Virus record (IMG/VR): IMGVR_UViG_3300033075_000403
Coordinates: 1 to 64,000 of that record
DNA length: 64,000 nucleotides
Strand: one strand, 5' to 3'
From: a virus
Lineage: Duplodnaviria; Caudoviricetes
The notes below the pieces were generated by a model. It ran no database searches. It was given only the letters and a program-made list of their open reading frames with translations, and had not been told where the DNA came from. Below are positions 43,244-59,510 of the stretch, one piece after another (the stretch's first letter is position 1; each line of letters opens with the position of its first letter). The position numbers were made by a program, and so were the translations under genes.

Positions 43244-43253
43244 GGAACAAACC

Positions 43254-43649: not shown

Positions 43650-43658
43650 GAGCAAGCG

Positions 43659-44863: not shown

Positions 44864-44884
44864 CAAGCAAAGGCAGGGCAGACG

Positions 44885-45181: not shown

Positions 45182-45193
45182 CGAGGTGACGAG

Positions 45194-46612
45194 ATGTCGT
45201 TCACAGATTTTTTCACAAATGCCTCCACCGGCTCCAACATGAACGGCGGGAGCGACGAAAACACGTCGCCAGCCTACTCCGCGACCAATGGCGGTTGGAA
45301 CAGTGGGACCGGGGTATTCACGCCGACCAGCGGTGACCCGTCTGCTGTGTCTCCCACGCTGGTAGGACAGTTTGCCCACGTCTTCACGGACGGCAGCACG
45401 ACGCCGACTCGCATCGCTCGCGTGACGGCGGTGTCGTCCACCACGCTGACCCTTAGCACTACGGCGGGCAGCGGCACGGCTCCAACGACGGCGGGGACTG
45501 GAATCAGCGTCAATGTCGGCGGCGTGTGGAAGGGACCGAACGGGACGGTTGGCTTTCCATTCTCCGGGGCGACACTTACCAGCGCTGCCACGAACGCCTC
45601 CGGCGACCTTCCGTTTATCAACATGAAAAACGGCACGAACTACGCAATCACCGCCGCAATCACCTGGAGTTCGGCCAATGTCAGCGTCGGCGGCTACACG
45701 TCCACGGTTCGCGACGGCGGCAAAGCGGTCATCGACGGCGGCACGAGCGGGTCAAGCTACGTCCTGCTGACCGTTTCCGGAACGCCATGCGAGGTCATGG
45801 ATTTGATCCTGCAAAACAACGGCGCGACAGGCTCCGCAGCCGGGTTGTCCAACTCCAACAATCGAAACACGTTTCGCCGCGTCGTGGTCAACTCCGTCCG
45901 TGGGGCCGGGTTCGTCAATACGTTTGTTGGCAGGTTCACCCAGTGCGAAGCGTATGCCTGCAACCAATCGAACACGGCGGCGACCGCAGGGTTCAATATC
46001 ACTGCGGCGGCGGTCCTCAAAAGGTGCGTGTCGCACGACAACACCGGGAGCAACTCCAGCGGATTCGTCATCACACCAACCGTTCCGGTGACGCTGATTG
46101 GGTGCATCGCCGACACAAACGGACAGCACGGATTCAGCGGTACAGGGATTGGGCCGGTGGTGCTTCAGAACTGCATCGCGTCCGCAAACACCAGCGACGG
46201 GGCCAGGCACGCCGACGCGACATGCGCATGGGACGTGGAGAACTGCATATTCTCCACGAACGGCGGCTACGGCTTCACCTCCACGGCGAATGCGGGGGAC
46301 GAGTTGGTCAACAACGCCTTTCGTTCCAACACGTCCGGCCAGACCAACAACACTAACGCCGATCTCGTCACCGGCTCCGTCACACTGACCGGCGACCCGT
46401 TCACCGACGCCGCCAATGGCGACTTCACGCTTAACAACACGTCTGGAGCTGGTGCGTCCTGTCGTGGCGCTGGCATCGGCACATACACGCAGACGGCGAG
46501 CAGCTACGCGGGCACGGTCGGTTATCCCGACATCGGCATTCAGCATCAAGAAACGGGCGGTGGTGGCCCTGTTGCCCGCCAAACGATTCGCACAAACATC
46601 GGAACCTACTAG
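45194..46612 (+). CDS. Right-handed beta-helix (pectin-lyase-like) tailspike/adhesin
   Basis: Repeating C(V/I)(S/A)xxNxxxGF rungs; C-terminal GDF.L...S.CRGAG...DIG. Confidence 0.75.
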   Translation: MSFTDFFTNASTGSNMNGGSDENTSPAYSATNGGWNSGTGVFTPTSGDPSAVSPTLVGQFAHVFTDGSTTPTRIARVTAVSSTTLTLSTTAGSGTAPTTAGTGISVNVGGVWKGPNGTVGFPFSGATLTSAATNASGDLPFINMKNGTNYAITAAITWSSANVSVGGYTSTVRDGGKAVIDGGTSGSSYVLLTVSGTPCEVMDLILQNNGATGSAAGLSNSNNRNTFRRVVVNSVRGAGFVNTFVGRFTQCEAYACNQSNTAATAGFNITAAAVLKRCVSHDNTGSNSSGFVITPTVPVTLIGCIADTNGQHGFSGTGIGPVVLQNCIASANTSDGARHADATCAWDVENCIFSTNGGYGFTSTANAGDELVNNAFRSNTSGQTNNTNADLVTGSVTLTGDPFTDAANGDFTLNNTSGAGASCRGAGIGTYTQTASSYAGTVGYPDIGIQHQETGGGGPVARQTIRTNIGTY

Positions 46613-46628
46613 CAAAGGCAGACATATC

Positions 46629-47144
46629 ATGGGCGCTCTCTTTCTTGTCGCGAATGGTCCGATGCAGACCACGGCGGCTTTCGCTGCGGTTACAACAGGC
46701 ACGGCAATTAAGACCATGATCCAGATCAAGCCTGGATCAACCACTCCGCTCCGGGTGGTTGACTGGTGGATCAGCTTTGACGGGTATGTTGCAGCGACAC
46801 CGATCAAGGTTGAGTTGATCGAAACAGACGTGGCTGCGACTGTAACCGCGTATGCGGCTGCGGACATCACCAAGCTCAATGCCGATGCGTTGATGTTCGG
46901 CGATCCAACCACGGCATTGATCGCGGTCGGCACCACGTCGAGCGGCTACACATCAACCAGCGAGGGTTCGATTACTTCGGTGCGAAACCTTGCGCCGCCT
47001 CAGTTCATCGCGCCGACCAACCAGAACATCATCCAGATGCCGCTTGGCCGCGAAGCATTGATTCAGGCTGGCAAGTTTGGGCGAATCCGCGTGACGGCTG
47101 GCGCTGCGGTCAACTGCTACTGCGGCATGACCCTGGAGGGGTAA
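46629..47144 (+). CDS. Beta-rich structural protein
   Basis: ATG 46629; in the fibre block. Confidence 0.6.
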   Translation: MGALFLVANGPMQTTAAFAAVTTGTAIKTMIQIKPGSTTPLRVVDWWISFDGYVAATPIKVELIETDVAATVTAYAAADITKLNADALMFGDPTTALIAVGTTSSGYTSTSEGSITSVRNLAPPQFIAPTNQNIIQMPLGREALIQAGKFGRIRVTAGAAVNCYCGMTLEG

Positions 47145-47145
47145 C

Positions 47146-48744
47146 ATGGCCCGCTTAGGTCGTCGGCAATCGTTTCCCTGGAAACGCCGCAATCCGCCTG
47201 TGATTGTTCCGGCGCTGACGACCTACGCCACAGCCGGCACCTACTACTGGATCGCCCCAGCAGCCGGCACCATCAACGTCAAAGCCTATGGCGGTGGTGG
47301 TGGTGGCGGTGTCGGCATTTACCCAACAGGAACTGGCGGAGGTGGCGGTGGGGCCTATTCCGAGGTCGCGGCGCAGTCAGTGACGGCAGGCCAGTCGGTC
47401 ACGATTGTCGTCGGTACTGGTGGCGGCAGTGTAACGAACGGTGGTGACTCGTCAGCCGATTCATTTTGCGTGGCCAAGGGTGGTAGTACGACAACCACGG
47501 CTCTCACAGGTGGTATTGGCGGGCAGTCATCGGCTGGCACTGGGGACATTAAGTATTCGGGTGGTAATGGCGCTCCATGTCAGACAGGTGGAAGAGGGGC
47601 AATCTATGGTGGTGGTGGGTCATCTGCTGGTACGGGTGCGGACGGCACAACGGCTACTGTAGCAGTTGGAGCGGTAGCTCCGTCGGGTGGCGGTGATGGC
47701 GGAAACGGTCAGGCATCGAGCGGTCTAGCGGGTTCATCCCCAGGCGGTGGTGGAGGGCAAGGTGGATCTGGTACAGGCGGCACGGGTGGCGATGGCAAGG
47801 TGCTGGTGCTGTTCACCGTTGGGGTTGCTACCACCACCTATACCGGCACAGGAACGCTGACAAGCGGAGTGGCGACGCTCGCGGGATCAGCAACTTTCGT
47901 CAAGCCAACTTACACGGGTACAGGGTCGCTCGTTTCTGGTATTTCGACGCTGATAGGTGTCGCCACATTTACCAAGCCAACCTACACGGGGACTGGCTCG
48001 CTCACAGCCGCACCGTCCATACTATCCGGCTCTGCTACGTTTGTCGTGCCAACCTACACCGGGGCAGCCGCGCTGACCGTCGGACCATCCACGTTGGTAA
48101 GTTCCGCTGCGTTTACACAGCCGACATTTACAGGAATCGGTTCGCTAGTCGTTGCGCCAACAAGTTTGGCAAGTTCCGCAACCTTCACCACGCCGACCTA
48201 CACCGGGACTGGATCTCTAACCGTTGCGGCATCAAGTTTAGTGGCAGTGGCAACTTTTGTTAATCCGACCTACACTGGTGCAGCGACGCTTACTTCGGGG
48301 TCAACAACGGTTGCGGCTGCGGCGACGTTCACCGTTCCAATTTTTACAGGAATTGGCTTGCTGGCTATCGCACCGGCAAGTTTATCTGCTTCGGCGACTT
48401 TCCAGCCACCACCCGTCTACGGGACAGGTGTACTGACCGTGGGGACCGTCCTGTTGAGTGGGGCGGCGGTGTTTTTTATCCCTCCGGTAACTGGAAGCGG
48501 AAACCTGATCGTTGGGGCTTCTCTACTTTCCGGTTCCGCGATATTCACCACCATACCGTCGTTCGCCACAACTACGGACACCACCCTGTTCGTCCAACTA
48601 CGATCAGAGTCCACCGTCTGTGCATCCATTGGACCCTCAGACGGTTCTTTGTTCACCCATTTGGAAACGATCTCCATATCCGCTACGTCGTTGGGTTCCG
48701 ACTCAACGGCTGGCTCATATCGACAATCAGACACACTGGATTAG
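47146..48744 (+). CDS. Glycine-rich domain plus ten 24-aa Thr/Ser-rich repeats (fibre-like)
   Basis: N-half paralogous to 44276..44863; then (TYTGTGSLxxxxSxLxxxATFxxP) x10. Confidence 0.8.
   Translation: MARLGRRQSFPWKRRNPPVIVPALTTYATAGTYYWIAPAAGTINVKAYGGGGGGGVGIYPTGTGGGGGGAYSEVAAQSVTAGQSVTIVVGTGGGSVTNGGDSSADSFCVAKGGSTTTTALTGGIGGQSSAGTGDIKYSGGNGAPCQTGGRGAIYGGGGSSAGTGADGTTATVAVGAVAPSGGGDGGNGQASSGLAGSSPGGGGGQGGSGTGGTGGDGKVLVLFTVGVATTTYTGTGTLTSGVATLAGSATFVKPTYTGTGSLVSGISTLIGVATFTKPTYTGTGSLTAAPSILSGSATFVVPTYTGAAALTVGPSTLVSSAAFTQPTFTGIGSLVVAPTSLASSATFTTPTYTGTGSLTVAASSLVAVATFVNPTYTGAATLTSGSTTVAAAATFTVPIFTGIGLLAIAPASLSASATFQPPPVYGTGVLTVGTVLLSGAAVFFIPPVTGSGNLIVGASLLSGSAIFTTIPSFATTTDTTLFVQLRSESTVCASIGPSDGSLFTHLETISISATSLGSDSTAGSYRQSDTLD
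47836..48555 (+). repeat. Ten tandem 72-bp (24-aa) coding repeats
   Basis: Repeat units read from the translation; DNA diverged at synonymous sites. Confidence 0.85.
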
Positions 48745-48753
48745 GAGCAACCC

Positions 48754-49047
48754 ATGTCTTACGATTCCGCAAGCTACTTCATCGGCGATGTGAAGAAGTT
48801 CGAGGTCACGACGGTCAAGGACAGCGTGAACTGGTCCTGCACTGCTGTTACCCTCTATCTCGTTGACCCTGACGGCAACGTGGACTCCTACACCGCCACG
48901 CAGGACTCCACCTACGTCTGGAGCAAAACCGTCTCTACGGCCATCCTCGACCAGCGTGGGGATTGGAGACGCTATTGGACGGCCACCGATGGAGTCACCA
49001 CCCTTACGTGTGGCGAGGTCGAATTTTATGTGAAACAGATAGAGTAG
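48754..49047 (+). CDS. Small beta-sandwich structural protein
   Basis: VTLYLVDPDG...LDQRGDW pattern; last gene of the fibre block. Confidence 0.65.
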   Translation: MSYDSASYFIGDVKKFEVTTVKDSVNWSCTAVTLYLVDPDGNVDSYTATQDSTYVWSKTVSTAILDQRGDWRRYWTATDGVTTLTCGEVEFYVKQIE

Positions 49048-49595: not shown

Positions 49596-49609
49596 AGCCC
49601 AACAGGGGT

Positions 49610-49697
49610 AGATTACACCCCCACCACCCCTTCCGTCAAGTCTTTCTGGATTTTTCTCTCAAGAATCTTGACAGGGGGAGGGTGGCGAGCCTATACT
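49610..49697. promoter_or_regulatory. Back-to-back promoters with G-rich spacers
   Basis: Plus: TTGACA(49668-49673)-18-TATACT(49692-49697) ahead of the glycosylation cluster; minus: TTGACG(49639-49634) with a weaker -10. Confidence 0.6.
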
Positions 49698-49827: not shown

Positions 49828-51024
49828 ATGCATTGGACCGCCATCCTCACCGTCGCCGACACCGGGCCAAGGGAATCCCTGGTGGAAATGCTCGACAGCA
49901 TCGGCATCGACTGCGTGATCCCCACCGACAAACTCCGCAGCACCCTCCAGAGCTGGGGTCTGGATTGCATCCTCGATCCCTCCCGCCTCGAAGCCGAGAT
50001 GGGGTACTCCGTCGCAGCACCACTCCCCCAGGTCGGACTCGAAGCCCTCGACCGCAAGGACACCCTGGTCGTTGACGTGAAAGCCCACCGCAACTACGAC
50101 CGCATCCTCAAACACAAACCCAACCTCGCTGGTCGCATCCTCTGGTATCGCATCAACGGAGGACAACCCGAACACGTCGTCAACGCCCGTGGGGACTTCG
50201 GAGACGAACGCAACCCACCCTGCCCCATCCTCACCCCCAACCTTTGGTACAAGCAAGAATTTGAGGACGTACCATGTGATGAGTGTCCTCCCGAAGAGCA
50301 AATCGACCTGACGGACCAAGGACTGCCCAGAATCGCGTTTAAGCCTTACCACTCGAAATGTGGGGGTAGAGGCGTTTTATCCGTCGAAATGCCTTGGCGG
50401 GGCAAATCGTTCGCTTGCTGGCCCCCTTTCTCAAGAATCTCCGAGTACAACGTCCTCCGTCGTCCGGGGGATGGGGTGAACGAGACGTGGAAGAAGTACG
50501 CCAACCCGGTGTGCCTGGTTCACAACCTCCAGGGGTGGGGGTACGGAAATCTCATAGAGCGTGTCCGTCAACTCGGTGTCAGATGCTACGGACTTGGTTC
50601 GCCGGACGGATTGCTTCAGCATGGTGAAGCTCGTATCCGATTAGAGTCGGCACTGGCTTTGGTTCACCTGAAGTCATCCGATGCTCCGGGGTACGCTTTG
50701 TATGAAGCACTCGCGTCTGGTTGCCCAATTATTTGCCCTCGCCGTTTGATATGGCGAAACCGTATGGAAGATCTTTTGGTAGAGAATGAGACGTGTTTGT
50801 GTTTTGACAGAGAAACACATGATTCCCTATCGCCTGAAGAAGCAGTAACATGCTCCGCAGAAATTGAAAAGCATCTGAAGTATCTTTCCAGCAACCGCAA
50901 CAACAAAAAGATCGGGCTTGCGGGGAGGGAGAGGCTTCAGGAGGTCATGTGGTCCTCCAAACGCGATAAGGATGTGGAGTCACTGAGGAATTTCTTCAAG
51001 AAAAACTTCCCGAATATCGGATAA
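49828..51024 (+). CDS. GT-B glycosyltransferase (GT4-like)
   Basis: DAPGYALYEALASGCPII...LLVENETCL (EX7E-like C-terminal motif). Confidence 0.75.
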   Translation: MHWTAILTVADTGPRESLVEMLDSIGIDCVIPTDKLRSTLQSWGLDCILDPSRLEAEMGYSVAAPLPQVGLEALDRKDTLVVDVKAHRNYDRILKHKPNLAGRILWYRINGGQPEHVVNARGDFGDERNPPCPILTPNLWYKQEFEDVPCDECPPEEQIDLTDQGLPRIAFKPYHSKCGGRGVLSVEMPWRGKSFACWPPFSRISEYNVLRRPGDGVNETWKKYANPVCLVHNLQGWGYGNLIERVRQLGVRCYGLGSPDGLLQHGEARIRLESALALVHLKSSDAPGYALYEALASGCPIICPRRLIWRNRMEDLLVENETCLCFDRETHDSLSPEEAVTCSAEIEKHLKYLSSNRNNKKIGLAGRERLQEVMWSSKRDKDVESLRNFFKKNFPNIG

Positions 51025-51146
51025 AGGGTTGCAACCGTCATAAAAGGCGGTATGCTCTCAACATCCCCGGAGTGGGGTAACAGCGCTTGACTCCCGCTGG
51101 ACTCGTCATCCGCCCCACTCCGGGTTTTCCTATCAAGAGACATGAC

Positions 51147-51953
51147 ATGCAAATTGGCATCATTGGGAATGGTACCGTGGGGTCGGCGATGCTGGTGGCG
51201 TACCAGCACCTCGGCCACGACGTACTGGCTCACGACATCGTGCCAGAGCGATCCCAGTGCAGTCTCTCCGAGGTCGTGAAACGGGAGCTGGTGTTCGTCT
51301 GCCTGCCTACTCCCAAGCGTGACGACTCCCTGCGGTGCAACACGCGGTCACTGGATACGCTGCTGTGGGAGATCATCCACCTGCAACCGGAAGCCAACGT
51401 GGTGATCCGGTCCACGGTTCCCATCGGCTACACAAAGTTGTTCCACGATCACGGTCTGAGCAACATCGTCCACTCCCCGGAGTTCCTCACGATGAGAACG
51501 GCGGTGGAGGATGCTCGCAATCCTCGACAACTCATCATTGGGTGTCCTGACCGGATGAAGCTGACGGATGGGTCGTCCAAGTTGTTCCACTTCTACGCGG
51601 AGACGCACGAAGGGAACGGTGTGAAGGTGCTCATCTGTCACAGCGATGCCAGCGAAGCGATCAAGCTGATGCAAAACAGCTTCAGTGCCGCCAAGGTGAG
51701 CCTGTTCAACGAGTTCTACCAGCTGTGCAAGTCCACGAAGATCGACTGGGATACGGTGGTGATGGGTCTGCTCAACAACGGGTGGATCAACCCGATGCAC
51801 ACCGAGGTTCCAGGACCGGATGGTCAGTTCGGCTACGGTGGCGCATGCTTCCCCAAGGACATTGCGAATCTCGTGACGTGCATGCGTGACGCCGGTGTGA
51901 GTCCGACCATGCTTCTTGCGTCGATGGAGAGGAATGCTGTAGACAGGGGGTGA
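51147..51953 (+). CDS. ugd: UDP-glucose/GDP-mannose 6-dehydrogenase family (short form lacking the C-terminal domain)
   Basis: IGIIGNGTVG; FVCLPTP; IRSTVPIG; SPEFL; EAIKLMQNSF; GYGGACFPKD. Confidence 0.9.
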   Translation: MQIGIIGNGTVGSAMLVAYQHLGHDVLAHDIVPERSQCSLSEVVKRELVFVCLPTPKRDDSLRCNTRSLDTLLWEIIHLQPEANVVIRSTVPIGYTKLFHDHGLSNIVHSPEFLTMRTAVEDARNPRQLIIGCPDRMKLTDGSSKLFHFYAETHEGNGVKVLICHSDASEAIKLMQNSFSAAKVSLFNEFYQLCKSTKIDWDTVVMGLLNNGWINPMHTEVPGPDGQFGYGGACFPKDIANLVTCMRDAGVSPTMLLASMERNAVDRG

Positions 51954-52139
51954 TCCGTGTTCAACGGAATGGGCGGCCTGGTTCCCGACTACGACTTCGT
52001 TTACGCCAGTGATTCCATCAACTCCAATCAAGAAAGCCTGTCTCACCGGAGCCGCCGTGTCAGAACCAAGAGAAAGAAGCCACCGTGACGGTGGGTAGAG
52101 GATTCACCTGGAAGTTTCCAGGGGCGTTTACAGGGGAGG

Positions 52140-52406
52140 ATGCAGGGGATGACGAAGCAAGAAAAATACCTGGAAGGTGCTCACCGCAAGCTCGAAGAGG
52201 CGGCGCTGAATTACGCCAGAGTCCAGGCGAACGCCTGTTACGTCAACTCGCTTGGTGAATTGGTGATGTTGTCGCATGACGAAAAAGAAACACACTCGCT
52301 GTATTGGAGTCAGGCGATGATGGCTGCGGCAAAAATGCTGCTTATTGAGGTGTCGATGACGCCTTTGCCGCCCAGGTCCAGCAGCCATGCGGAGGCCACG
52401 ACATGA
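52140..52406 (+). CDS. Hypothetical protein
   Basis: GGGAGG SD; ends EATT at the repeated junction. Confidence 0.6.
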   Translation: MQGMTKQEKYLEGAHRKLEEAALNYARVQANACYVNSLGELVMLSHDEKETHSLYWSQAMMAAAKMLLIEVSMTPLPPRSSSHAEATT

Positions 52407-52702
52407 TCGGAGCGAACACGCCACCGGGGACGGAAGTTTGGGAGCTTTGCCCCTACGACAAGTTTGTCACGGGCCCATATCGCCTTCTGCGCATGGAGGA
52501 CGAAAAAGCAGTGATTGACCGGATTCTCGAAGAAGGTGAAGAATCTTTGCCATTCAGTTCGTTCCACCAAAAACGTGTCGATCTGTTCTTGACCAAGCGA
52601 GAGGCGATCTTGGCACTCGTCATCTACCGTCAGCATCGTCTTGACAGGGCCGTGGCGGAACTGGCCGCACACGACGCTGGGCAAGCGGAGGCCACGCCAT
52701 GA
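52403..52702 (+). CDS. Hypothetical protein
   Basis: Starts and ends at GGAGGCCACG(A/C)CATGA junctions. Confidence 0.65.
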   Translation: MIGANTPPGTEVWELCPYDKFVTGPYRLLRMEDEKAVIDRILEEGEESLPFSSFHQKRVDLFLTKREAILALVIYRQHRLDRAVAELAAHDAGQAEATP

Positions 52703-52902
52703 CAGGATGGACGGAATTCATCTACCCAGTGTTCCCGCAGATTGCATGCGAATGCGGCGGTCTCATGGCGTGGCAGCGCAACCCGCGTAACAACATGGTT
52801 GAGTTGCGCTGCAACAAATGCTGCGAACGAGCGGAGGTGCCTGTTGAGGACGACTGCCGCAAGGCGCTGGAACGCAATACTTGGAAAGGACCAAAGGCAT
52901 GA
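52699..52902 (+). CDS. Small Zn-ribbon protein
   Basis: CECGG...CNKC. Confidence 0.6.
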   Translation: MTGWTEFIYPVFPQIACECGGLMAWQRNPRNNMVELRCNKCCERAEVPVEDDCRKALERNTWKGPKA

Positions 52903-53141
52903 CCGACACAAACAAACTGGACAGGCCGCGACCGATCATGCCAGACTTGGAGGGTGACAATCTGGTCATTCAGGCAGTTATGATCGCCGCAACAAAACTT
53001 GCTCAACTGGAAAAAAACAGGACGCTGGACGAGCGGAGCAGACGGGAGTGCATGGCTGTTCGAGACTTGTTGGAGCGAGCCGAGAATCACCTGATGCCAA
53101 CGCTGGCGCAAAGCCGAAAGGCAATGGAGGCCACGCCATGA
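52899..53141 (+). CDS. Hypothetical helical protein
   Basis: ATGA overlap; ends EATP. Confidence 0.6.
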   Translation: MTDTNKLDRPRPIMPDLEGDNLVIQAVMIAATKLAQLEKNRTLDERSRRECMAVRDLLERAENHLMPTLAQSRKAMEATP

Positions 53142-53380
53142 CCGACGAAGTTGATGATGACGATTTCCGCCTCTGGAGCGACGGTAGGCTGGAGGAGGAA
53201 ATTGGCGGGATACGCGACAGCATGCGTTTCTTCAAGGGCGATCAAGCCCGCGAGATGTCCGACCGGCACAATGTACTGGTTGACGAGTGGAAGCGTCGGA
53301 AGGCCGCGCCTGTGACCGACGAAGCCGCCCTGCAAGCCCTGCTCGACACAATCCAAAGGCAAAATGATGCGCAAGCGTAA
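53138..53380 (+). CDS. Acidic hypothetical protein
   Basis: ATGA overlap after GGAGG. Confidence 0.6.
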   Translation: MTDEVDDDDFRLWSDGRLEEEIGGIRDSMRFFKGDQAREMSDRHNVLVDEWKRRKAAPVTDEAALQALLDTIQRQNDAQA

Positions 53381-53591
53381 ATCAATCAACCTGAACTCGG
53401 ATCTATTCTCAACAGGGGATGTCGCCTGGATTTGTGGGGTGAGTTCTCTGACGGTGCGGAAGTGGCAGGAGAAGGGTCTGTTGCCTGGACATCGAATCCC
53501 TGGAACGGTGAACCGACACCGCCGTTTCCGCAGGGAGGACGTGGTGAAGTTCATCAATGATCATGGTCTACCCAATCCAGGATTGCACTGA
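53364..53591 (+). CDS. Excisionase/MerR-like HTH DNA-binding protein
   Basis: FSTGDVAWICGVSSLTVRKW...G.LP.HRIPG...HRRFRREDVVKF. Confidence 0.85.
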   Translation: MMRKRKSINLNSDLFSTGDVAWICGVSSLTVRKWQEKGLLPGHRIPGTVNRHRRFRREDVVKFINDHGLPNPGLH

Positions 53592-53873
53592 GCCTGCGGC
53601 GGCATGGGGGAAAATGCTTGGGAGAGTGCCCTGTGTCGCCGCTTTTGTACCCGCCAGCTTCGGCGGTAGGGTGAGGGTTAAATCCCCTCAACGGATGCCG
53701 TGCCGATGATTGACGTGGCGATATATCAACCTCCCACGTCATAGGCCCCTGAGCGTGGGTGATTCGCGCGTCCCACGGTATGGCGGAGGTCGATCCATAC
53801 TCCGTCGAATGGTGCTCATGTACCGACGAACCCCGGTATCCACAACCAGCGATGGGTTCAAACTTACGAGGGT

Positions 53874-54239
53874 GTGATGAGACAGCAAGGTGCGGTGTGG
53901 ATGGAGGGAGATGATGTCAAGTACGGATCATCGTTGCCGCATTCCGCACAAGATTATTTGCTATGGTGTGGTGGTACGGCTAACTCCATTGAGATTGCCG
54001 ACATTGTGGTGATGTCGAAACGTAGAAGTGGTATTGGACGAAAGCTCGTCAGTGCGATGCTTCTTGCACTGGACACCGAGACGGTGGTGTGGGCTTGTAC
54101 GCGAACGACGAACGAGATTGCGCAGCAATTCTACGAGGCACTTGGGTTTGATGTGGCTGGTGTGGTGCGTCGTCTGCACGGTACGGAACAGGGTGCGGAC
54201 GGGGTGATCTACCTGCGCCGTGCAGGTGGTCCAATCTGA
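53874..54239 (+). CDS. GNAT N-acetyltransferase (RimI-like)
   Basis: IVV...RRSGIGRKL; NEIAQQFYEALGF. Confidence 0.85.
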   Translation: MMRQQGAVWMEGDDVKYGSSLPHSAQDYLLWCGGTANSIEIADIVVMSKRRSGIGRKLVSAMLLALDTETVVWACTRTTNEIAQQFYEALGFDVAGVVRRLHGTEQGADGVIYLRRAGGPI

Positions 54240-54275
54240 AAACAGACGAAGTATGATTGCCCAAGGAGACAACCG

Positions 54276-54488
54276 ATGACGGATAAGAACGGGGACATTA
54301 AGACAATCCCCTTTGCAGCGCTGGTGATAGCAGCCGTATTGTTCGGCACGGTCGCAGGTCTTTTGTCCTGTGGACACTGCAACACGCGACCAGATGTTCC
54401 TCCCGCTGTGGACATGCGAGATGTCGGACAGGAGAACAACAACGGCATTCGTGTTCTGTTCTGGTCGAAGATGTTCGGTGCGTGGTAG
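54276..54488 (+). CDS. Small membrane protein / possible lipoprotein
   Basis: TM segment followed by LLSC. Confidence 0.55.
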   Translation: MTDKNGDIKTIPFAALVIAAVLFGTVAGLLSCGHCNTRPDVPPAVDMRDVGQENNNGIRVLFWSKMFGAW

Positions 54489-54495
54489 ACGATCC

Positions 54496-55530
54496 ATGTC
54501 GAAACGAGTCCGAGACAGGTACAACCACAGGAAGGACGCACGCTTGAAGGTTGCTTCGATTGTGTACGCCACCGACCAGGGGTTGGGGTATCTGGCGAAG
54601 TCGTTCTGGGATGCGGGAATCCTATCGGAAGTCCTGATCGTCAAGCACCAGCACCGTCCTACGCACCAGGAATGGTTCCCCGGTCAGACGATGGTGAACT
54701 GGTCGAGTCAGATGCCGAAACAGGCACGAGGTCTGGTACAGCGGTGTGACGCTCTCCTGTTCTTCGAGACTCCGTTTTGGTGGGACATCATCCCCTTCGC
54801 GCGAGAGCAGGGGAAGAAGACATTTCTTTGTCCGATGCACGAATGCGAACCGAAAGTCCTCCCTTACGTCCCTGACCGATACATCAACCCGTCCCTGCTC
54901 GACCAGAGGTGCTACCCGGACAACTCGGTGTTCATCCCGGTTCCGGTGGAGGATCTGTTCATCAACCAGTGGCGGCAGAGGATGAGGGCGTACACGTTCG
55001 TCCACAACGCGGGACATGGGGGGCTGAAGGGGAGAAACGGGACACGGGAGTTGATCGAGGCGATGCAGTACGTCAAGGCCGACATCGAGCTGGTGATTCG
55101 TTCACAGAAGCCTCTGGAAGGGATACCGAATGATCCTCGGATCAAGGTGAAGGTGGGGACTGTGCCACGCGAGCAACTTTACAGCGAGGGTGACGTGTTC
55201 ATCTTCCCAGAGAAGTTCAACGGACTCTCCCTTCCTCTACAAGAAGCCTGCGCATCGGGGATGCTGGTGATGGCGACGGATCGTTTTCCGATGAACCAGT
55301 GGTTGCCCACGGAACCGCTGATCCCGGTGAAGAAGTCGGTGCAGAACGAAGTATCGGGTAGGTGTCGGACGTTCCTCGAAGCGGTGATCGACCCGGTGGA
55401 CATCGCGGCGAAGATTGACGAGTTCTCGACACTTGAGATTGGACACTGGAGTGGTAAGGGGTACGATTACGGCCAGCAGAACTCATGGGATGTTCTCAGG
55501 CCAAGGTATCTTGAGGAGTTGTCCAGGTGA
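54496..55530 (+). CDS. GT-B glycosyltransferase (GT4)
   Basis: DVFIFPEKFNGLSLPLQEACASGMLVMATD. Confidence 0.9.
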   Translation: MSKRVRDRYNHRKDARLKVASIVYATDQGLGYLAKSFWDAGILSEVLIVKHQHRPTHQEWFPGQTMVNWSSQMPKQARGLVQRCDALLFFETPFWWDIIPFAREQGKKTFLCPMHECEPKVLPYVPDRYINPSLLDQRCYPDNSVFIPVPVEDLFINQWRQRMRAYTFVHNAGHGGLKGRNGTRELIEAMQYVKADIELVIRSQKPLEGIPNDPRIKVKVGTVPREQLYSEGDVFIFPEKFNGLSLPLQEACASGMLVMATDRFPMNQWLPTEPLIPVKKSVQNEVSGRCRTFLEAVIDPVDIAAKIDEFSTLEIGHWSGKGYDYGQQNSWDVLRPRYLEELSR

Positions 55531-56438
55531 GGAAGCACCGTGTCCTGTACGTGGCCAACCACAACCAGAAGTCGAGCAACGACGATGAAGGGGCGATCAC
55601 CTACGCCCTTCGTCAACTGGGTCATGAGGTTATCACGGAACCGGAGAAGACGAGTTTACCACGGATCGCTCAACTCTCGAAGGATTGCGACTTCCTCCTG
55701 TTCCACAAGTGGCAGGACACCCACTCGATGGCCGCTTCTCGGTGTCCCAACGTGATGTGGTACTTCGATCTGGTGGACTTCCCTGACCCCGGTTTGCGTC
55801 GTCGCTGTGTGGACCGCATTCGCTGGATGTTGAAAGTGCTTCCTCACGTCGCATTGGGATTCGCCACGGATGGGGACTGGGTTCGGAGAAACACCAAGAA
55901 GTTGCGGTGGCTACCCCAGGGCGCTGATGAGCGAATGCTGGCCGACCCTACGAAGATTCGATTCCCAGATCAACCGAAGATTCTGCTGGCGGCGTCGAGT
56001 AGGGGTGGGGAGAAGCGTGACTCGTTCATCGAGCACATGCGGACGTGGCACGCGGATCGTCTGGTGTACGTTCCACAGGGGGTATACCGAGAGAAGATGC
56101 GTGACCTCGTGGCTCAGTGTGGTGTGGTGGTCTGCCCTGACGGTCCTGTGACTTCGAGGTACTGGTCCAACCGCGTGTACAATATGACCGGGTTTGGTGG
56201 GTTAGTGTTCCATCCTCGGTGCGAGCGGTTGAACGATCACTTCGACGATGACGAAGTGTTGTCCTACACCAGTCGGGAAGAACTGGATGAGTTTCTCAAG
56301 TACCCTTTCGACTCGATGTGGTATCAAGACAACATGCAGTTGATGAAGTGTGGTTTGTTGCGCACCATTGAGTGTCACACCTACCGCCACCGCGTCATGG
56401 AGATGCTGTCCTGTCTTGAGATAGAGGGAATCGTATGA
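55527..56438 (+). CDS. Glycosyltransferase, CgeB/YkvP-like (Glyco_trans_1_2)
   Basis: WYFD; WLPQGAD; YWSNRVYNMTGFGG; HTYRHR. Confidence 0.85.
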   Translation: MRKHRVLYVANHNQKSSNDDEGAITYALRQLGHEVITEPEKTSLPRIAQLSKDCDFLLFHKWQDTHSMAASRCPNVMWYFDLVDFPDPGLRRRCVDRIRWMLKVLPHVALGFATDGDWVRRNTKKLRWLPQGADERMLADPTKIRFPDQPKILLAASSRGGEKRDSFIEHMRTWHADRLVYVPQGVYREKMRDLVAQCGVVVCPDGPVTSRYWSNRVYNMTGFGGLVFHPRCERLNDHFDDDEVLSYTSREELDEFLKYPFDSMWYQDNMQLMKCGLLRTIECHTYRHRVMEMLSCLEIEGIV

Positions 56439-56689
56439 TGTACAAGATTAAACCTCTCAAGTGGCTGCACAACACGCCTCCGAGTGGGCCGGAGTGGTGG
56501 ACCACATTCGGACTGGGCGGAGAGGGCAACGGGTCGGAGATGGGGACCATCGAGGTGTACCTCAGCAACTACGGTGGGTGGAAGATCACGGGAAGCAGCG
56601 AGAAGTTCGAGAACGCGGAAGACGCTAAGGAGGTCGTGGAGGATAACCACACCCGCTTGCTGCGTCTGTTCCTGGAGGAGACGCCCTGA
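56435..56689 (+). CDS. Hypothetical protein of the Y.IKPL.W paralogue family
   Basis: YKIKPLKW...FENAEDAKEVVEDNHTRLLRLFL. Confidence 0.65.
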   Translation: MMYKIKPLKWLHNTPPSGPEWWTTFGLGGEGNGSEMGTIEVYLSNYGGWKITGSSEKFENAEDAKEVVEDNHTRLLRLFLEETP

Positions 56690-57171
56690 TGGAGCCGATC
56701 CTTGATCCCGCTTATTGGAAGGAACGACTGGATACCGCAGCCCAGTTACACCACGCCATCATGAAATGTCCGCTGGAGAAGTGGCAGAGGATCGAGGCGA
56801 AGCACCGGGAGATTCTCAAGCGGGTGGTGCAGCCGGACGACCGTGTACTGGATGCGGGGGCAGGTTACGGACGCCTGCTCACGCTGATGCCGGATCATTG
56901 GAGGGGTCCGTATCATGGGGTAGACCTGTCCCCTGACTTCATCGCCAAAGCAAAGGCGGATTACCCGGAGCGGGACTTCCGTGTTGGGTCGATCATGGAT
57001 CGCATCGACGTGCCCCCGTGCGACCTGGCCGTGCTGATCTCGATTCGGCCAATGATCGTTCGTAATCTGAGCCAAGAGGCGTGGGAGATGGCGGAAGTCA
57101 ACCTGCAGCTGGTGGCGAAACGCCTGCTGTTTCTAGAATATGATGAGACATCCGAAGGGGAGATTTCGTGA
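56689..57171 (+). CDS. Class I SAM methyltransferase
   Basis: VLDAGAGYGRL; YHGVDLSPDFI. Confidence 0.85.
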   Translation: MEPILDPAYWKERLDTAAQLHHAIMKCPLEKWQRIEAKHREILKRVVQPDDRVLDAGAGYGRLLTLMPDHWRGPYHGVDLSPDFIAKAKADYPERDFRVGSIMDRIDVPPCDLAVLISIRPMIVRNLSQEAWEMAEVNLQLVAKRLLFLEYDETSEGEIS

Positions 57172-58151
57172 TGCGTGAAGTTAGGAACTGCGTGGTGGCC
57201 GTCACGGGGGCGGCAGGGTTTATGGCCCACCACTTGCTGAAGCACCTCATCGACGACCGGGGGTGCGAGGTGGTGGCCATCGACAACCTCTGCGCGGGTA
57301 GGCGTGACTTCGTTCACAAGAAGGCCAATTTCGTACATCATGATCTCCTCGGAAGTGAGGACAGGCTTCGCAACATCTTCGAGAAGAACAAGGTGAAGTA
57401 CGTCTTCGCCCTCGCAGCTCATCCCTACGTTCCTGACAGCTACGTTCGTCCGATCTACGTTTTCGAGACGAACGCCACCGCCGCCCTTCGCACGATGAAT
57501 GCCGCCCAGGAAGCGGGGGTGGAGGCGATCCTCCAAGTGTCGAGCGCCGAGATTTATGGGGAGGGGGCAGTCCACGACCGACCAATGGATGAAGACGCGC
57601 TGGTCAAGCCCCACTCGACGTACTCCGCAGCGAAGGCCGCCATCGACTTCATTGTGCAGGTACGGTGGAGGGAGGCGAAGACACCAGCCATCGCCCTGCG
57701 GCAATTCAACGTGTTGGGGGAACTCGATCTGCTCCATCCATACGTGGTGCCGGAAATTGTGCGCCAGTTGATTCCGCAAGACTCGAATTTACATGCCACG
57801 GTTCGTCTCGGCAACAACTCACAGCGTGACTTCCTCTACGTCGGTGATGCAGTGGAAGCAATGGTACTACTGCTGGAGAAGGGGAAGTTCGGAGAGGTGT
57901 ACAACAGCGGCAGCGGGGAGTCCGTGTACATCTACGATCTCGCCAAGCAGATCGGTGACATCATGAGGTTTCCACACGTCGAAGTCGTGCCGGATGATGC
58001 ACGCCGACGAAAGTGGGAGTTGTGGTCTTTGCGAGGTGATTTCGCCAAGTTGAATAACGCAACGGGATGGTTTCCGAAGGTTCCCTTCCAGGAAGCCCTG
58101 CGTCGAACGGTTGAATCCATCATCGAGAACCAGGATAAGTTCGCATGGTAG
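57168..58151 (+). CDS. NDP-sugar 4,6-dehydratase / NAD-dependent epimerase (RmlB/Gmd-like SDR)
   Basis: VTGAAGFMA; SSAEIYG; YSAAK (YxxxK); RDFLYVGD; GEVYN. Confidence 0.92.
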   Translation: MMREVRNCVVAVTGAAGFMAHHLLKHLIDDRGCEVVAIDNLCAGRRDFVHKKANFVHHDLLGSEDRLRNIFEKNKVKYVFALAAHPYVPDSYVRPIYVFETNATAALRTMNAAQEAGVEAILQVSSAEIYGEGAVHDRPMDEDALVKPHSTYSAAKAAIDFIVQVRWREAKTPAIALRQFNVLGELDLLHPYVVPEIVRQLIPQDSNLHATVRLGNNSQRDFLYVGDAVEAMVLLLEKGKFGEVYNSGSGESVYIYDLAKQIGDIMRFPHVEVVPDDARRRKWELWSLRGDFAKLNNATGWFPKVPFQEALRRTVESIIENQDKFAW

Positions 58152-59137
58152 AACCGCATGTGCAGCTGGAGCAAGCGTGGGGTGACTTCCTCCACATCAA
58201 GAACGTGGTGTCCTGCTCCAGTGGGTCGAGTGCCTTGCACCTGGCACTGGAGGCGTTGGACATACATCTGGCGTCCGAGGTTGTCACCGCCGACTACTCG
58301 ATGATCGCATGCCCCCGTGCAATCGTGATGGCGGGTCTGGTGCCGGCGTTCATGGACTGCAACGACGACCTGTTGATGCAGCTGGACGGCACGCAGAAGA
58401 TGGAGCGTAGTCGCACGCTGGCGGCGATTCTCGTCGTCCACGTCTACGGTCGCCGTGTGGACATGGATCTGGTTCACCGCATCGCGAAGAAGCGGGAGAT
58501 CCTGGTCATCGAGGACATGGCCGAACTGCACGGGGTGCCGCCTCACCCGCTGACGCACGCCGCTTGCTGGTCCTTTTACAAGAACAAGGTGGTGGGTGGG
58601 GAAGAAGGGGGTGCGGTGTCGTTTCGTGACCCGAAGCATGCCGAGCGCGCCCGCAGTCTGCGATGCCTGGGGTTTGGGTATGAGCATGACTACATGCACC
58701 TGCCGCGAGGGTGCAACTACCGCATGTCGTCGGCACACGCCAACCTGATCCTCAAGAGTCTGGACCAGTACGAGAACAACCTTGCTACCCGAAGGCTCAT
58801 GGAGAAGTGGTATGACAGTCTTTGTCCGAAGCGGTGGGGAATGCCACCACGCCAGTCTCCGTGGGTGTACGATCTGCGGATTCCGGGGATGACGAAATCG
58901 GTGCAAGCAAAACTGGTGGAGAGTCTCAACGCCGATGGGATTCCGGCCAGACACGGGTTCAAACCGATGACCTGGCAGACGGAGTTCAAGAACTGTCGCC
59001 GTAACGACGGGGTGATGAAGTCGTGGGAGCGCGCTCATGAGATCATCTACCTTCCGCTGAATCCGGCGATGGGGAAGACCGAGTTCGACCGGGAGCAACT
59101 CGCTGTGCGAGCGTTCAACATCATCAAAGATGCTTGA
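58145..59137 (+). CDS. DegT/DnrJ/EryC1/StrS PLP sugar aminotransferase
   Basis: SSGSSALHLAL; VHVYG; IEDMAE; SFYKNK(PLP Lys)VVGGEEGG; NYRMS. Confidence 0.92.
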   Translation: MVEPHVQLEQAWGDFLHIKNVVSCSSGSSALHLALEALDIHLASEVVTADYSMIACPRAIVMAGLVPAFMDCNDDLLMQLDGTQKMERSRTLAAILVVHVYGRRVDMDLVHRIAKKREILVIEDMAELHGVPPHPLTHAACWSFYKNKVVGGEEGGAVSFRDPKHAERARSLRCLGFGYEHDYMHLPRGCNYRMSSAHANLILKSLDQYENNLATRRLMEKWYDSLCPKRWGMPPRQSPWVYDLRIPGMTKSVQAKLVESLNADGIPARHGFKPMTWQTEFKNCRRNDGVMKSWERAHEIIYLPLNPAMGKTEFDREQLAVRAFNIIKDA

Positions 59138-59197
59138 CGAGGAGTGTAGGATAATGACAGGGAAACTTTTCCTGTCATTTCTTTTTGGAGGATCGTC

Positions 59198-59497: not shown

Positions 59498-59510
59498 AAG
59501 GGTCGTGTGG

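What the first reader, a model, noticed from the sequence alone, without database searches (positions are those of the whole stretch)
49828..59137. Near-complete amino-sugar synthesis and glycan-transfer system in a tailed phage
Seen: behind one promoter (49668-49697) lie a GT4-like transferase, a UDP-glucose dehydrogenase, a GNAT acetyltransferase, a second GT4, a CgeB-like transferase, a SAM methyltransferase, an NDP-sugar dehydratase-like SDR and a DegT aminotransferase; a fourth (GT-A) transferase sits inside the tail module (41799..42797). Established: 4,6-dehydratase + DegT + acetyltransferase is the route to 4-amino/4-acetamido-6-deoxyhexoses (perosamine, viosamine); giant viruses use such routes to glycosylate their fibres, and some actinophages glycosylate virions with transferases alone. 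Inference: this phage makes its own uronic and acetamido-deoxy sugar donors and builds a methylated multi-sugar glycan. Likely acceptors are virion proteins (Thr/Ser-rich 47146..48744, GTGTGT-rich 40735..41799); the host surface or DNA are alternatives. Donor synthesis plus transfer in a ~64 kb siphovirus would be unusual.
Basis: partly seen in the sequence, partly recalled or inferred. Interest (0 to 1): 0.88.

Follow-up and report, generated by a model that had tools for sequence, protein, structure and literature searches.

The report
Phage sugar-making and sugar-attaching gene module
An uncultivated 74-kb tailed phage carries intact enzymes for tailoring an amino sugar and four sugar-transferases, a kit that its relatives share in shuffled versions beside their tail genes, so it probably sugar-coats the phage's own tail proteins, though the target is untested.

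Summary
All nine genes exist at the stated coordinates, and their catalytic motifs are intact and conserved.

- About 1.9 kb of small ORFs, including an HTH gene, interrupts the "operon".
- The "UDP-glucose dehydrogenase" lacks the C-terminal UDP-binding domain. It belongs to a large virus-only family of short two-domain proteins.
- The SDR carries S-A-E rather than T-D-E, so "4,6-dehydratase" is likely but not shown.
- The host is unresolved.

The module is not a decaying host fragment. Codon usage matches the rest of the phage. GT-A, a GT4-like transferase, the methyltransferase and DegT recur at 38-56% identity in more than 20 viral contigs. One relative has the whole set contiguous.

The GT-A gene has no Pfam, NCBIfam or PHROG family, with about 1,000 clusters in the protein library. 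All five complete relatives carry it next to their distal tail genes. The sugar genes behind it vary: amino-deoxy, rhamnose-like or C-methyl. GT-A::GT4 and GT-A::GNAT fusions tie the parts together. Thr-Gly tracts occur only in tail proteins near GT-A.

Best reading: virion (tail/fibre) glycosylation, confidence 0.5. Host-surface remodelling is not excluded. DNA glycosylation is unlikely, because no hydroxymethylase, TET or C5-methylase was found.

This scan has already noted similar phage cassettes in at least 69 other genomes.

The parts
41799..42797 (+). GT-A-fold glycosyltransferase of an unnamed family. It is a core gene of the distal-tail module in this phage lineage and anchors the glycan island.
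   Evidence: No Pfam, NCBIfam or PHROG family. AlphaFold model with pLDDT 68. Foldseek probability 1.0 to POMGnT1, Mimivirus R655/R699, GLT25D1 and GnT-I, and to actinophage and giant-virus transferases. Invariant FQDD and SLVQH-x-G motifs in 12 homologs. Present in all five complete relatives. About 1,008 library clusters at E<=1e-30.
40735..41799 (+). Distal tail protein p354 with (Thr-Gly)n tracts. Candidate glycan acceptor.
   Evidence: TG tracts at residues 145, 178, 230 and 312. Its stop abuts the GT-A start. The homolog in L050 is also directly upstream of GT-A and also carries TG tracts.
42836..49047 (+). Block of virion and fibre-like genes lying between GT-A and the rest of the module: p135 virion structural protein, a second SAM methyltransferase (43659-44279), two Gly_rich_2 proteins, the beta-helix protein p472, and p532 with TG-containing repeats.
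   Evidence: phrog_3758 at 7.9e-25. Pfam Methyltransf_11, Gly_rich_2 and Beta_helix. This block is absent at the corresponding place in L050.
49668..49697 (+). Sigma-70-like promoter candidate ahead of GT_a.
   Evidence: TTGACA-18-TATACT, 11 of 12 matches, the best in 41000-60500. A consensus match only.
49828..51024 (+). GT_a, a GT-B (GT4-like) glycosyltransferase.
   Evidence: Glyco_trans_1_2 23.5 bits, below the 25-bit cut-off. Atlas structural neighbours are GT4 families and virus-only clusters. 52% identical homolog in L050.
51147..51953 (+). Short two-domain homolog of nucleotide-sugar dehydrogenases (mini-Ugd).
   Evidence: UDPG_MGDP_dh_N plus central domain. The motifs K-x3-N and GGACFPKD are present. 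PF03720 is absent from the genome. The top 120 database relatives are all 256-348 aa and lack PF03720. Atlas clusters are 87-100% viral.
52140..53591 (+). Cassette of six small overlapping ORFs ending in an HTH_17/MerR-like protein (53364-53591). It interrupts the enzyme set.
   Evidence: No homologs in the related loci.
53874..54239 (+). Mini-GNAT acetyltransferase (121 aa).
   Evidence: Acetyltransf_1 28.9 bits, cut-off 20.7. RRSGIGRKL acetyl-CoA motif. Homologs of 108-148 aa in at least 8 loci. One library protein is a GT-A::GNAT fusion, P0179.
54496..55530 (+). GT_b, a GT-B/GT4-like transferase and the most conserved partner of GT-A.
   Evidence: Model pLDDT 90.3. Foldseek matches BshA, PimA and PBCV-NY2A B736L. 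Found in 16 of 18 DegT loci. Fused to GT-A in G003, in L079 and in at least 8 library proteins.
55527..56438 (+). GT_c, a Glyco_trans_1_2 (CgeB-like) transferase.
   Evidence: 38.1 bits, cut-off 25. phrog_28745 glycosyltransferase. Homologs in 5 DegT loci and in L050.
56689..57171 (+). Small class I SAM methyltransferase.
   Evidence: Methyltransf_25 and Methyltransf_11. Homologs in 13 loci.
57168..58151 (+). Extended SDR acting on NDP-sugars. Probably a 4,6-dehydratase; a 4-oxidase/decarboxylase or an epimerase is not excluded.
   Evidence: GDP_Man_Dehyd 2.8e-44. Best NCBIfam hits are LegB (126.7 bits) and RmlB (121 bits), both far below cut-off. G14, G17, S126, Y152 and K156 are invariant, and VSSAEIYG is kept in six homologs.
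58145..59137 (+). DegT/DnrJ/EryC1 PLP-dependent sugar aminotransferase in a short-N-terminus form.
   Evidence: 173.7 bits. Closest solved structure is GDP-perosamine synthase 3BN1 at 5.6e-35. D124, S143, K146/K148 and EEGG are invariant in 14 homologs.
59153..59179 (+). Terminator-like hairpin after DegT.
   Evidence: 12-bp stem, 3-nt loop, then TCTTTTTGG.

Best explanation
This is a phage-borne glycosylation module that decorates the phage's own distal tail and fibre proteins.

Proposed steps (the enzyme identities are shown; the chemistry and the target are inferred):
1. The phage has no nucleotidyltransferase, so it draws on a host NDP-hexose.
2. The SDR oxidises or dehydrates that sugar to a 4-keto (probably 6-deoxy) intermediate.
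3. DegT aminates the intermediate.
4. The mini-GNAT N-acetylates the amine.
5. The small methyltransferase methylates a hydroxyl, either before or after transfer.
6. GT-A, which is a core gene of the tail module in this lineage, starts the glycan on a virion protein. The likely sites are Thr residues in the (Thr-Gly)n linkers of p354, p138 and p532.
7. The three soluble GT-B enzymes (GT_b, GT_c, GT_a) extend the glycan.

The sugar-tailoring genes behind GT-A are swapped between relatives, which would give each phage its own glycan type.
For: Enzymes intact and under selection:
- Catalytic motifs are invariant in 7-16 homologs at 38-56% identity.
- Codon usage equals the rest of the phage: RSCU r is 0.85-0.90, against 0.82 between the structural and replication gene sets.

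A coherent unit:
- GT-A, GT_b, the methyltransferase and DegT co-occur in most of 18 IMG/VR loci.
- L050 has GT-A, GT_a, Ugd, GNAT, GT_b, GT_c, SDR and DegT contiguous, directly after the p354-like tail protein.
- GT-A::GT_b fusions occur in G003, in L079 and in at least 8 library proteins. There is one GT-A::GNAT fusion.

Link to the virion:
- GT-A is present in all five complete relatives, next to p505/p138/p165/p354.
- In the window it lies between p354 and a phrog_3758 virion structural protein.
- Fibre-like genes lie inside the module.
- In six genomes, all 10 ORFs with TG tracts lie within 8.3 kb of GT-A, and 9 of them within 5.4 kb. TG tracts also lie upstream of GT-A in 7 further loci. 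They fall in 7 BLAST-unlinked protein groups.
- GT-A's fold neighbours include protein-O-glycan enzymes and transferases of actinophages and Mimivirus.

Other points:
- All enzymes are predicted soluble.
- No integrase was found.
- No thymidylate-synthase homolog, Tet_JBP or C5 methylase was found.
- Precedents are mycobacteriophage capsid and tail-tube glycosylation (Freeman 2023, as cited in PMC12619734 and PMC10877033) and the Mimivirus cluster R141/L136/L142 plus transferases for methylated N-acetyl-viosamine on fibres (PMC4691112).
Against: - No direct evidence for any acceptor. The phage is uncultivated.
- The TG tracts could be ordinary flexible linkers. Their closeness to GT-A is partly inherited synteny. 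G001 has GT-A but no TG tract.
- GT-A fold similarity says nothing firm about the acceptor.
- In several relatives the island runs straight into replication genes on the same strand, so its position alone does not mark it as 'late'.
- Soluble GT4 enzymes also act on lipid-linked intermediates at the membrane.
- The SDR lacks the Asp of the T-D-E dehydratase motif.
- The Ugd-like protein lacks its nucleotide-binding domain.
Confidence: 0.5

Rival explanations
1. Host-surface remodelling. The soluble phage transferases and the amino-sugar enzymes act during infection on host lipid-linked glycan intermediates (LPS, capsule, S-layer or protein glycans). Host flippases and ligases export the altered glycan. 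This would change the cell surface, for example to block superinfection or to stop progeny being trapped on debris.
For: - GT4-type enzymes and DegT/SDR pairs are classic O-antigen and capsule genes. The closest solved relative of DegT is an O-antigen perosamine synthase.
- The gene content varies between relatives in the way O-antigen loci do.
- Cyanophages carry comparable 'cell wall synthesis and modification' gene sets (PMC12801897).
- GT-A/GT_b homologs sit in planctomycete MAG contigs beside cellular genes.
Against: - No integrase, so lysogenic conversion is unlikely.
- No priming polyprenyl-phosphate transferase, flippase, polymerase or ligase, and no transmembrane segment in any enzyme.
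- GT-A is a core gene of the tail module in all relatives examined.
- Fibre genes are interleaved with the module.
Confidence: 0.27
2. DNA hypermodification. The transferases put a tailored sugar on a modified base in the phage DNA to block restriction enzymes.
For: - Phage GT-A and GT-B enzymes related to LPS enzymes do glycosylate 5hmC, and their gene clusters can lie near structural genes (bioRxiv 10.1101/2023.12.21.572611).
- In relatives the island abuts replication genes.
- Bacillus phage SP-15 also encodes a Ugd homolog. From my own knowledge, not checked here, SP-15 DNA carries a sugar-containing hypermodified base.
Against: - Known routes need a thymidylate-synthase homolog (5hmC, 5hmU, 5hoC; PMC13326640) or a C5-methylase plus TET. 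Six-frame searches found none of PF00303, PF12851 or PF00145.
- The only DNA methylase found is of the N6/N4 type.
Confidence: 0.08
3. An inert passenger: a recently captured host polysaccharide fragment that is decaying.
For: The Ugd-like gene lacks a domain. DegT lacks about 35 N-terminal residues. The GNAT is only 121 aa. Small ORFs interrupt the set.
Against: - Each 'truncation' is the conserved form in many homologs.
- Catalytic residues are invariant.
- Codon usage is fully phage-like.
- The module is shared by more than 20 diverged viral contigs.
Confidence: 0.02

Closest known systems
Mimivirus nine-gene fibre glycosylation cluster (R141 4,6-dehydratase, L136 PLP aminotransferase, L142 acetyltransferase, methylated N-acetyl-viosamine, glycosyltransferases; PMC4691112)
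   Same: Both are virus-encoded combinations of an SDR, a DegT-type aminotransferase, an N-acetyltransferase, methylation and several transferases. Both start from a host NDP-hexose, and both are associated with fibres. Mimivirus R655 and R699 are among the fold neighbours of GT-A.
   Different: This is a 74-kb tailed phage of a prokaryote. No orthology has been shown: the identities are only family-level. The dehydratase motif differs (S-A-E). The sugar and the acceptor are unknown.
Virion glycosylation in mycobacteriophages (Freeman et al. 2023, Cell Host Microbe; known here only through citing papers PMC12619734 and PMC10877033)
   Same: Phage-encoded transferases in a siphovirus modify virion proteins. 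Transferases of Mycobacterium phage Ardmore, Microbacterium phages and Gordonia phages are fold neighbours of GT-A.
   Different: I could not check this because the paper is not held. Here an SDR, DegT, GNAT and methyltransferase tailor the donor. The proposed acceptors are Thr-Gly linkers of distal tail proteins rather than the C-termini of capsid and tail-tube proteins. None of this is experimentally shown.
'LPS / cell-wall synthesis and modification' gene sets of cyanomyoviruses and pelagiphages (e.g. S-SCSM2R, PMC12801897). DegT and Ugd genes are annotated in Synechococcus, Aphanizomenon, Planktothrix and Pelagibacter phages.
   Same: Phage genomes that carry NDP-sugar enzymes, DegT-family proteins and many transferases of unknown target.
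   Different: Those phages are at most 31% identical to this one. Most are large myoviruses, and their genes are usually read as host-envelope auxiliary genes. Here the set is anchored by a core GT-A gene in the tail module.
Bacterial 4-amino-4,6-dideoxyhexose routes (GMD plus perosamine synthase Per; LegB/LegC; PglF/PglE/PglD)
   Same: An adjacent SDR and DegT plus an acetyltransferase. The best NCBIfam hits for the two enzymes are the LegB/LegC pair. The best PDB hit for DegT is perosamine synthase.
   Different: Scores are far below the equivalog cut-offs (126.7 against 475, and 136.7 against 420). The acetyltransferase is a mini-GNAT, whereas from my own knowledge (not tested here) PglD and PerB are left-handed beta-helix enzymes. 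There is no nucleotidyltransferase, and no nonulosonic-acid synthase follows.

Membership tests
DegT/DnrJ/EryC1/StrS sugar aminotransferase (PF01041) | Score above the Pfam gathering cut-off | tested here: met
   173.7 bits against 19.8.
DegT/DnrJ/EryC1/StrS sugar aminotransferase (PF01041) | Schiff-base Lys and PLP-binding Asp | tested here: met
   The Lys of SFYKNK aligns with that of SFFGNK in 3BN1, and IEDMAE aligns with IEDAAE. D124, K146 and K148 are invariant in 14 homologs.
DegT/DnrJ/EryC1/StrS sugar aminotransferase (PF01041) | Full-length N-terminal segment (about profile positions 1-27) | tested here: not met
   The match starts at profile position 28 and at residue 41 of 3BN1. The short form is shared by the viral homologs.
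NDP-hexose 4,6-dehydratase (RmlB / GMD / LegB equivalogs) | NCBIfam equivalog score cut-off | tested here: not met
   LegB 126.7 against 475, RmlB 121.2 against 365, GMD 65.3 against 415.
NDP-hexose 4,6-dehydratase (RmlB / GMD / LegB equivalogs) | GxxGxxG motif, Ser/Thr-Tyr-Lys triad, and an acid/base pair after the Ser/Thr (T-D-E in RmlB, T-S-E in GMD; these motifs are from my own knowledge) | tested here: inconclusive
   G14, G17, S126, Y152 and K156 are invariant. The motif is S-A-E: the Glu is kept, but the Asp/Ser position is Ala. It is conserved in six homologs. The closest solved chains are epimerase-like proteins and Rmd reductases.
UDP-glucose/GDP-mannose 6-dehydrogenase | Three domains, including the C-terminal UDP-binding domain PF03720 | tested here: not met
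   Only PF03721 and PF00984 are present. There is no PF03720 anywhere in the genome. TIGR03026 scores 124.9 against 189.8.
UDP-glucose/GDP-mannose 6-dehydrogenase | Catalytic Cys (GGxCxxKD) and the Lys/Asn of the central domain | tested here: met
   GGACFPKD and IKLMQNSF are present. Which residues are catalytic is from my own knowledge.
GT-B fold, GT4-like glycosyltransferases | GT-B two-Rossmann fold and Pfam GT1-clan membership | tested here: met
   GT_b: pLDDT 90, Foldseek 3.6e-11 to BshA and PimA. GT_c: 38.1 bits against 25. GT_a: Atlas TM 0.59-0.65 to GT4 clusters. However, GT_a (23.5 against 25) and GT_b (26 against 27) fall just under the Pfam cut-offs.
GT-A fold glycosyltransferases | GT-A fold with a DxD-type metal/nucleotide motif | tested here: met
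   Foldseek probability 1.0 to many GT-A enzymes, with TM about 0.4 and model pLDDT 68. FQDD and a C-terminal His are invariant. There is no sequence-family membership.
GNAT acetyltransferases | Pfam cut-off and the acetyl-CoA motif R/Q-x-x-G-x-G/A | tested here: met
   Acetyltransf_1 28.9 bits against 20.7. RRSGIGRK is present. At 121 aa the protein is short. That its substrate is a sugar amine is not testable here.
Phage virion glycosylation system (mycobacteriophage type) | Glycan demonstrably attached to virion proteins | not testable with these tools
   Only context is available: the tail-module position, the TG tracts and the fusions.
Phage DNA glycosylation systems (T-even, TET-type, 5hoC-type) | An enzyme that makes the hydroxylated base: a thymidylate-synthase homolog, or a C5-methylase plus a TET/JBP enzyme | tested here: not met
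   PF00303, PF12851 and PF00145 are absent in six-frame searches of the complete record, and the controls gave hits.

The most novel reading that the evidence does not exclude
A lineage of roughly 70-kb siphoviruses carries a self-contained, hypervariable O-glycosylation system. A previously unnamed GT-A family enzyme, a core gene of the tail module and often fused to a GT4 enzyme or a GNAT, primes the (Thr-Gly)n linkers of baseplate and fibre proteins. A swappable set of sugar-nucleotide tailoring genes (amino-deoxy, rhamnose-type or C-methyl) then gives each phage its own virion glycan 'serotype'. This would be a viral counterpart of O-antigen diversity, with Thr-Gly tracts acting as the sequon.
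Probability: 0.3. Interest if true: 0.8.

Novelty: new variant of a known kind. Interest (0 to 1): 0.6.

Why it matters
Virion glycosylation is experimentally known in only a few actinophages, and autonomous synthesis of donor sugars mainly in giant viruses. This module shows that mid-sized environmental siphoviruses combine both.

It also supplies testable handles:
- an unnamed GT-A family of about 1,000 clusters, tied to tail genes;
- recurrent GT-A::GT4 and GT-A::GNAT fusions;
- a candidate Thr-Gly acceptor motif;
- a virus-only two-domain relative of UDP-glucose dehydrogenase.

If virion glycans vary the way O-antigens do, that would bear on host recognition, on escape from host or grazer recognition, and on engineering phage surfaces. 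The enzymes would also be a source of rare-sugar glyco-tools.

Tried and rejected
- A megablast of the module against cultured phages gave no match. Protein-level hits in cultured phages are at most 31% identical. There is no cultivated relative.
- Profile searches of the GT-A and GT_b alignments against PDB sequences gave nothing useful. Only fold searches worked.
- Literature searches for a described phage DegT/dehydratase/transferase system found no direct match. The Freeman 2023 paper is not held. One search failed on term syntax.
- Tandem Repeats Finder sees only one short DNA repeat in the tail region. The protein repeats of p532 have diverged at the DNA level.
- My GC3-based gene caller worked for this genome but not for relatives with other base composition. 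For those I used plain ORF lists.
- The apparent 360-aa and 959-aa ORFs next to the planctomycete GT-A/GT_b locus L079 look like non-coding shadow frames, so I dropped them.
- MAG bin names for phage-sized contigs (Opitutaceae, Caulobacter, Dehalococcoidia) conflict with one another, so I rejected them as host evidence.
- I considered a Ugd, decarboxylase and ArnB-like route to a 4-amino-pentose. It cannot be excluded, but only three phages examined here have Ugd in this island, and it lacks its UDP-binding domain.

Full report
**What the window is**

The window is the first 64 kb of a 74,164-bp IMG/VR virus record. CheckV rates it 100% complete and IMG/VR classes it as linear. It has a siphovirus-type late region:
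- terminase, 18686-20272
- portal, 24479-26218
- major capsid protein, 30828-31991
- tape measure protein, 35541-38276

Its replication genes include a primase, a PD-(D/E)XK nuclease, a UDG-family protein and PolA. I found no tyrosine integrase. No cultivated phage is close. Megablast of the module found nothing, and the capsid protein is at most 30% identical to any isolate.

**The observation**

All the listed genes are real ORFs on the + strand, and each has family support.
- GT_a (49828-51024) and GT_b (54370/54496-55530) fall just under the Pfam GT1-clan cut-offs.
- GT_b models with pLDDT 90 as a GT-B/GT4 enzyme. Its structural neighbours are BshA, PimA and the chlorovirus protein B736L.
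- GT_a's structural neighbours in the ESM Atlas are GT4 families and virus-only clusters.
- GT_c (55527-56438) passes the Glyco_trans_1_2 cut-off.
- The methyltransferase (56689-57171), the SDR (57168-58151) and DegT (58145-59137) overlap by a few bases, as in a tight operon.
- The promoter-like site at 49668-49697 is the best in the 19.5 kb scanned. A hairpin followed by a T-run sits just after the DegT stop.

Three corrections are needed.
- Between the Ugd-like gene and the GNAT lie about 1.9 kb with six small overlapping ORFs, the last of which is an HTH_17/MerR protein.
- The Ugd-like protein has only the NAD-binding and central domains. The UDP-binding domain PF03720 is nowhere in the genome.
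- The gene at 41799-42797 has no sequence family at all. The model (pLDDT 68) matches POMGnT1, Mimivirus R655/R699, GLT25D1 and GnT-I with probability 1.0. FQDD and a C-terminal SLVQH-x-G motif are invariant in 12 homologs.

**Are the enzymes intact?**
- SDR: G14, G17, S126, Y152 and K156 are invariant, and the motif VSSAEIYG is kept in six viral homologs.
- DegT: the Schiff-base Lys and the PLP-binding Asp align with those of GDP-perosamine synthase 3BN1 and are invariant in 14 homologs.
- Ugd-like: it keeps the Cys, Lys and Asn motifs.
- GNAT: it has the acetyl-CoA loop.
- The apparent truncations are conserved forms, not decay. These are the missing ~35 N-terminal residues of DegT, the 121-aa GNAT and the 268-aa Ugd.
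- Codon usage of the nine genes matches the structural and replication genes as well as those two sets match each other: RSCU r is 0.85-0.90 against 0.82.

The 'decaying host fragment' refutation therefore fails.

**Relatives**
- DegT homologs at 38-50% identity occur in 18 IMG/VR loci. Almost all of these also carry GT_b. Most carry GT-A and the methyltransferase, and some carry GT_c, the SDR and the GNAT.
- Those islands hold other sugar genes as well: a sugar C-methyltransferase, a GMD-like SDR, GT2 enzymes, a PLOD-type transferase, a TylF-type O-methyltransferase and a sulfotransferase-like protein.
- Contig L050 (67 kb) is the best guide. It reads p505, p138, p165, p354-like, GT-A, GT_a, Ugd, x, GNAT, x, GT_b, GT_c, x, SDR, DegT with no gap. 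In the window, therefore, the module is split by about 7 kb of fibre-like genes at 42836-49047: a phrog_3758 virion protein, two Gly_rich_2 proteins, a beta-helix protein and a second SAM methyltransferase.
- Among five complete relatives (capsid protein 43-56% identical), all have GT-A beside the distal tail genes. Only G001 and G004 have DegT plus GT_b.
- G005 instead has a GT2, two SDRs (one of them RmlD-like) and a rhamnosyltransferase-like protein.
- G003 has a single 587-aa GT-A::GT_b ORF.

GT-A is thus a core tail-module gene, and behind it sits a hypervariable sugar island.

**How the parts are tied together**
- A profile search of 1.84 billion representative proteins found 2,172 GT-A relatives, 1,008 of them at E<=1e-30.
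- Among the best 150, at least eight are GT-A::GT_b fusions and one is a GT-A::GNAT fusion.
- Five planctomycete MAG contigs carry GT-A and GT_b homologs together. Four have a second GT-A copy, and in L079 the first two are fused and lie next to a typical planctomycete kinase/STAND/FGE-sulfatase gene.

**Target**
- Against DNA: every known glycosyl-DNA route starts from a thymidylate-synthase homolog or from a C5-methylase plus TET (PMC13326640; bioRxiv 10.1101/2023.12.21.572611). Six-frame searches found none of these, and the controls worked.
- Against lysogenic conversion: no integrase.
- Against an autonomous envelope pathway: no transmembrane segment in any enzyme and no priming transferase, flippase, polymerase or ligase recognised. 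However, soluble GT4 enzymes could still act on host lipid-linked intermediates, so host-surface remodelling remains a serious rival.
- For the virion:
  - GT-A has a fixed place in the tail module, between p354 and a virion structural protein.
  - Fibre genes are interleaved with the module.
  - There is a striking pattern of (Thr-Gly)n tracts. In six genomes, all ten ORFs with such tracts lie within 8.3 kb of GT-A, and nine within 5.4 kb.
  - Seven further loci have a TG-tract protein just upstream of GT-A.
  - The proteins fall into seven BLAST-unlinked groups.
- Caveats: this is suggestive, not proof. Part of the pattern is inherited synteny, the tracts could be plain linkers, and G001 has none.

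**Chemistry**

The phage has no nucleotidyltransferase, so it must start from a host NDP-sugar.
- The best NCBIfam hits for the SDR and DegT are the adjacent LegB/LegC pair, and the best solved relative of DegT is a C4 aminotransferase. This fits a 4-amino-4,6-dideoxyhexose that is then N-acetylated and methylated, the same logic as the Mimivirus viosamine cluster (PMC4691112).
- All of these scores are far below the equivalog cut-offs.
- The SDR has S-A-E where, from my own knowledge, dehydratases have T-D-E or T-S-E.
- The closest solved chains to the SDR are epimerase-like proteins and Rmd reductases.

The product therefore cannot be named.

**The Ugd-like protein**

It belongs to a big, virus-only family of two-domain proteins, some of them fused to a cytidylyltransferase-like domain. 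Whether it oxidises a nucleotide sugar is open.

**Novelty and verdict**

The module is real, functional-looking and conserved. Its kind is not unprecedented:
- phage virion glycosylation in actinophages;
- donor-sugar pathways in giant viruses;
- 'LPS' gene sets in cyanophages (PMC12801897);
- this scan's own earlier notes of comparable cassettes in at least 69 genomes.

What is new here:
- the unnamed GT-A family as a tail-module core gene;
- the recurrent fusions;
- the swappable sugar island;
- the Thr-Gly tract association;
- the mini-Ugd family.

I rate it a new variant of a known kind, with interest 0.6. Confidence is about 0.9 that it is a working sugar-tailoring and transfer module, and 0.5 that its target is the virion.

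Noticed in passing
window 51147-51953; loci L045-L049; proteins P0002-P0120: The 'UDP-glucose dehydrogenase' belongs to a large virus-only family of short (about 256-300 aa) two-domain proteins without the UDP-binding domain. Some are fused to a cytidylyltransferase-like domain. Neighbours elsewhere include an SDR, a TylF methyltransferase, PhyH, GSCFA and a CTP_transf/zeta-toxin-like kinase protein. The substrate is unknown.
   Followed up: partly
window 43659-44279: A second SAM-dependent methyltransferase (Methyltransf_11/25) sits inside the fibre-gene block, between a virion structural protein and a Gly_rich_2 protein. It could be a protein or a glycan methyltransferase.
   Followed up: no
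window 52140-53591: Six small ORFs that overlap or lie within 1 nt of each other and have no homologs in related loci. The last is an HTH_17/MerR-like DNA-binding protein. Together they interrupt the sugar module and look like an inserted regulatory or moron cassette.
   Followed up: no
L075-L079 (Planctomycetota MAG contigs); G003 46599-48360; proteins P0139, P0153, P0158, P0177, P0179, P0187, P0224, P0239: GT-A is repeatedly fused to the GT4-like GT_b domain, and once to a mini-GNAT. Four of the five planctomycete contigs carry GT-A, GT_b, GT-A triplets. In L079 the triplet lies beside a Ser/Thr kinase-STAND-FGE-sulfatase gene, which suggests a cellular origin or counterpart for the pair.
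   Followed up: partly
window 47146-48744: p532 has an N-terminal Gly_rich_2 domain followed by about nine diverged repeats of roughly 24 aa of the type 'ATF-x-PTYTGTGSLT'. The repeats are not detectable at the DNA level.
   Followed up: partly
L063 (G005) 3325-10268: A relative that lacks DegT and GT_b has a different island behind GT-A: a GT2, two SDRs (one RmlD-like) and a rhamnosyltransferase-like protein. This is evidence that the sugar genes are swapped as cassettes.
   Followed up: partly
L009 4136-6303; L001 4261-9998: Other islands carry a sugar C-methyltransferase (Methyltransf_13/14), a GMD-like SDR, a PLOD-type transferase, a TylF-type O-methyltransferase, a sulfotransferase-like protein and DUF6527.
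   Followed up: no
window 60370-61467 (- strand): A 365-aa protein (phrog_5931, function unknown) lies beside DegT in most of 13 related loci and ahead of the PD-(D/E)XK nuclease in most of them. It is probably part of the replication/recombination module, but I did not identify it.
   Followed up: partly
window 49048-49827: A gap of about 780 nt holds no ORF conserved in related loci. It lies between the last fibre-block gene and GT_a and contains the strong promoter-like site.
   Followed up: no
L071, L072, L073, L074 (genome contigs): Phage-sized contigs related to this phage are binned into MAGs named Opitutaceae, Caulobacter and Dehalococcoidia. L073 is a 73,771-bp contig, the same length as the viral record G001, so it is very probably the same contig. 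These are likely binning artefacts, so MAG names are unreliable for host assignment.
   Followed up: partly
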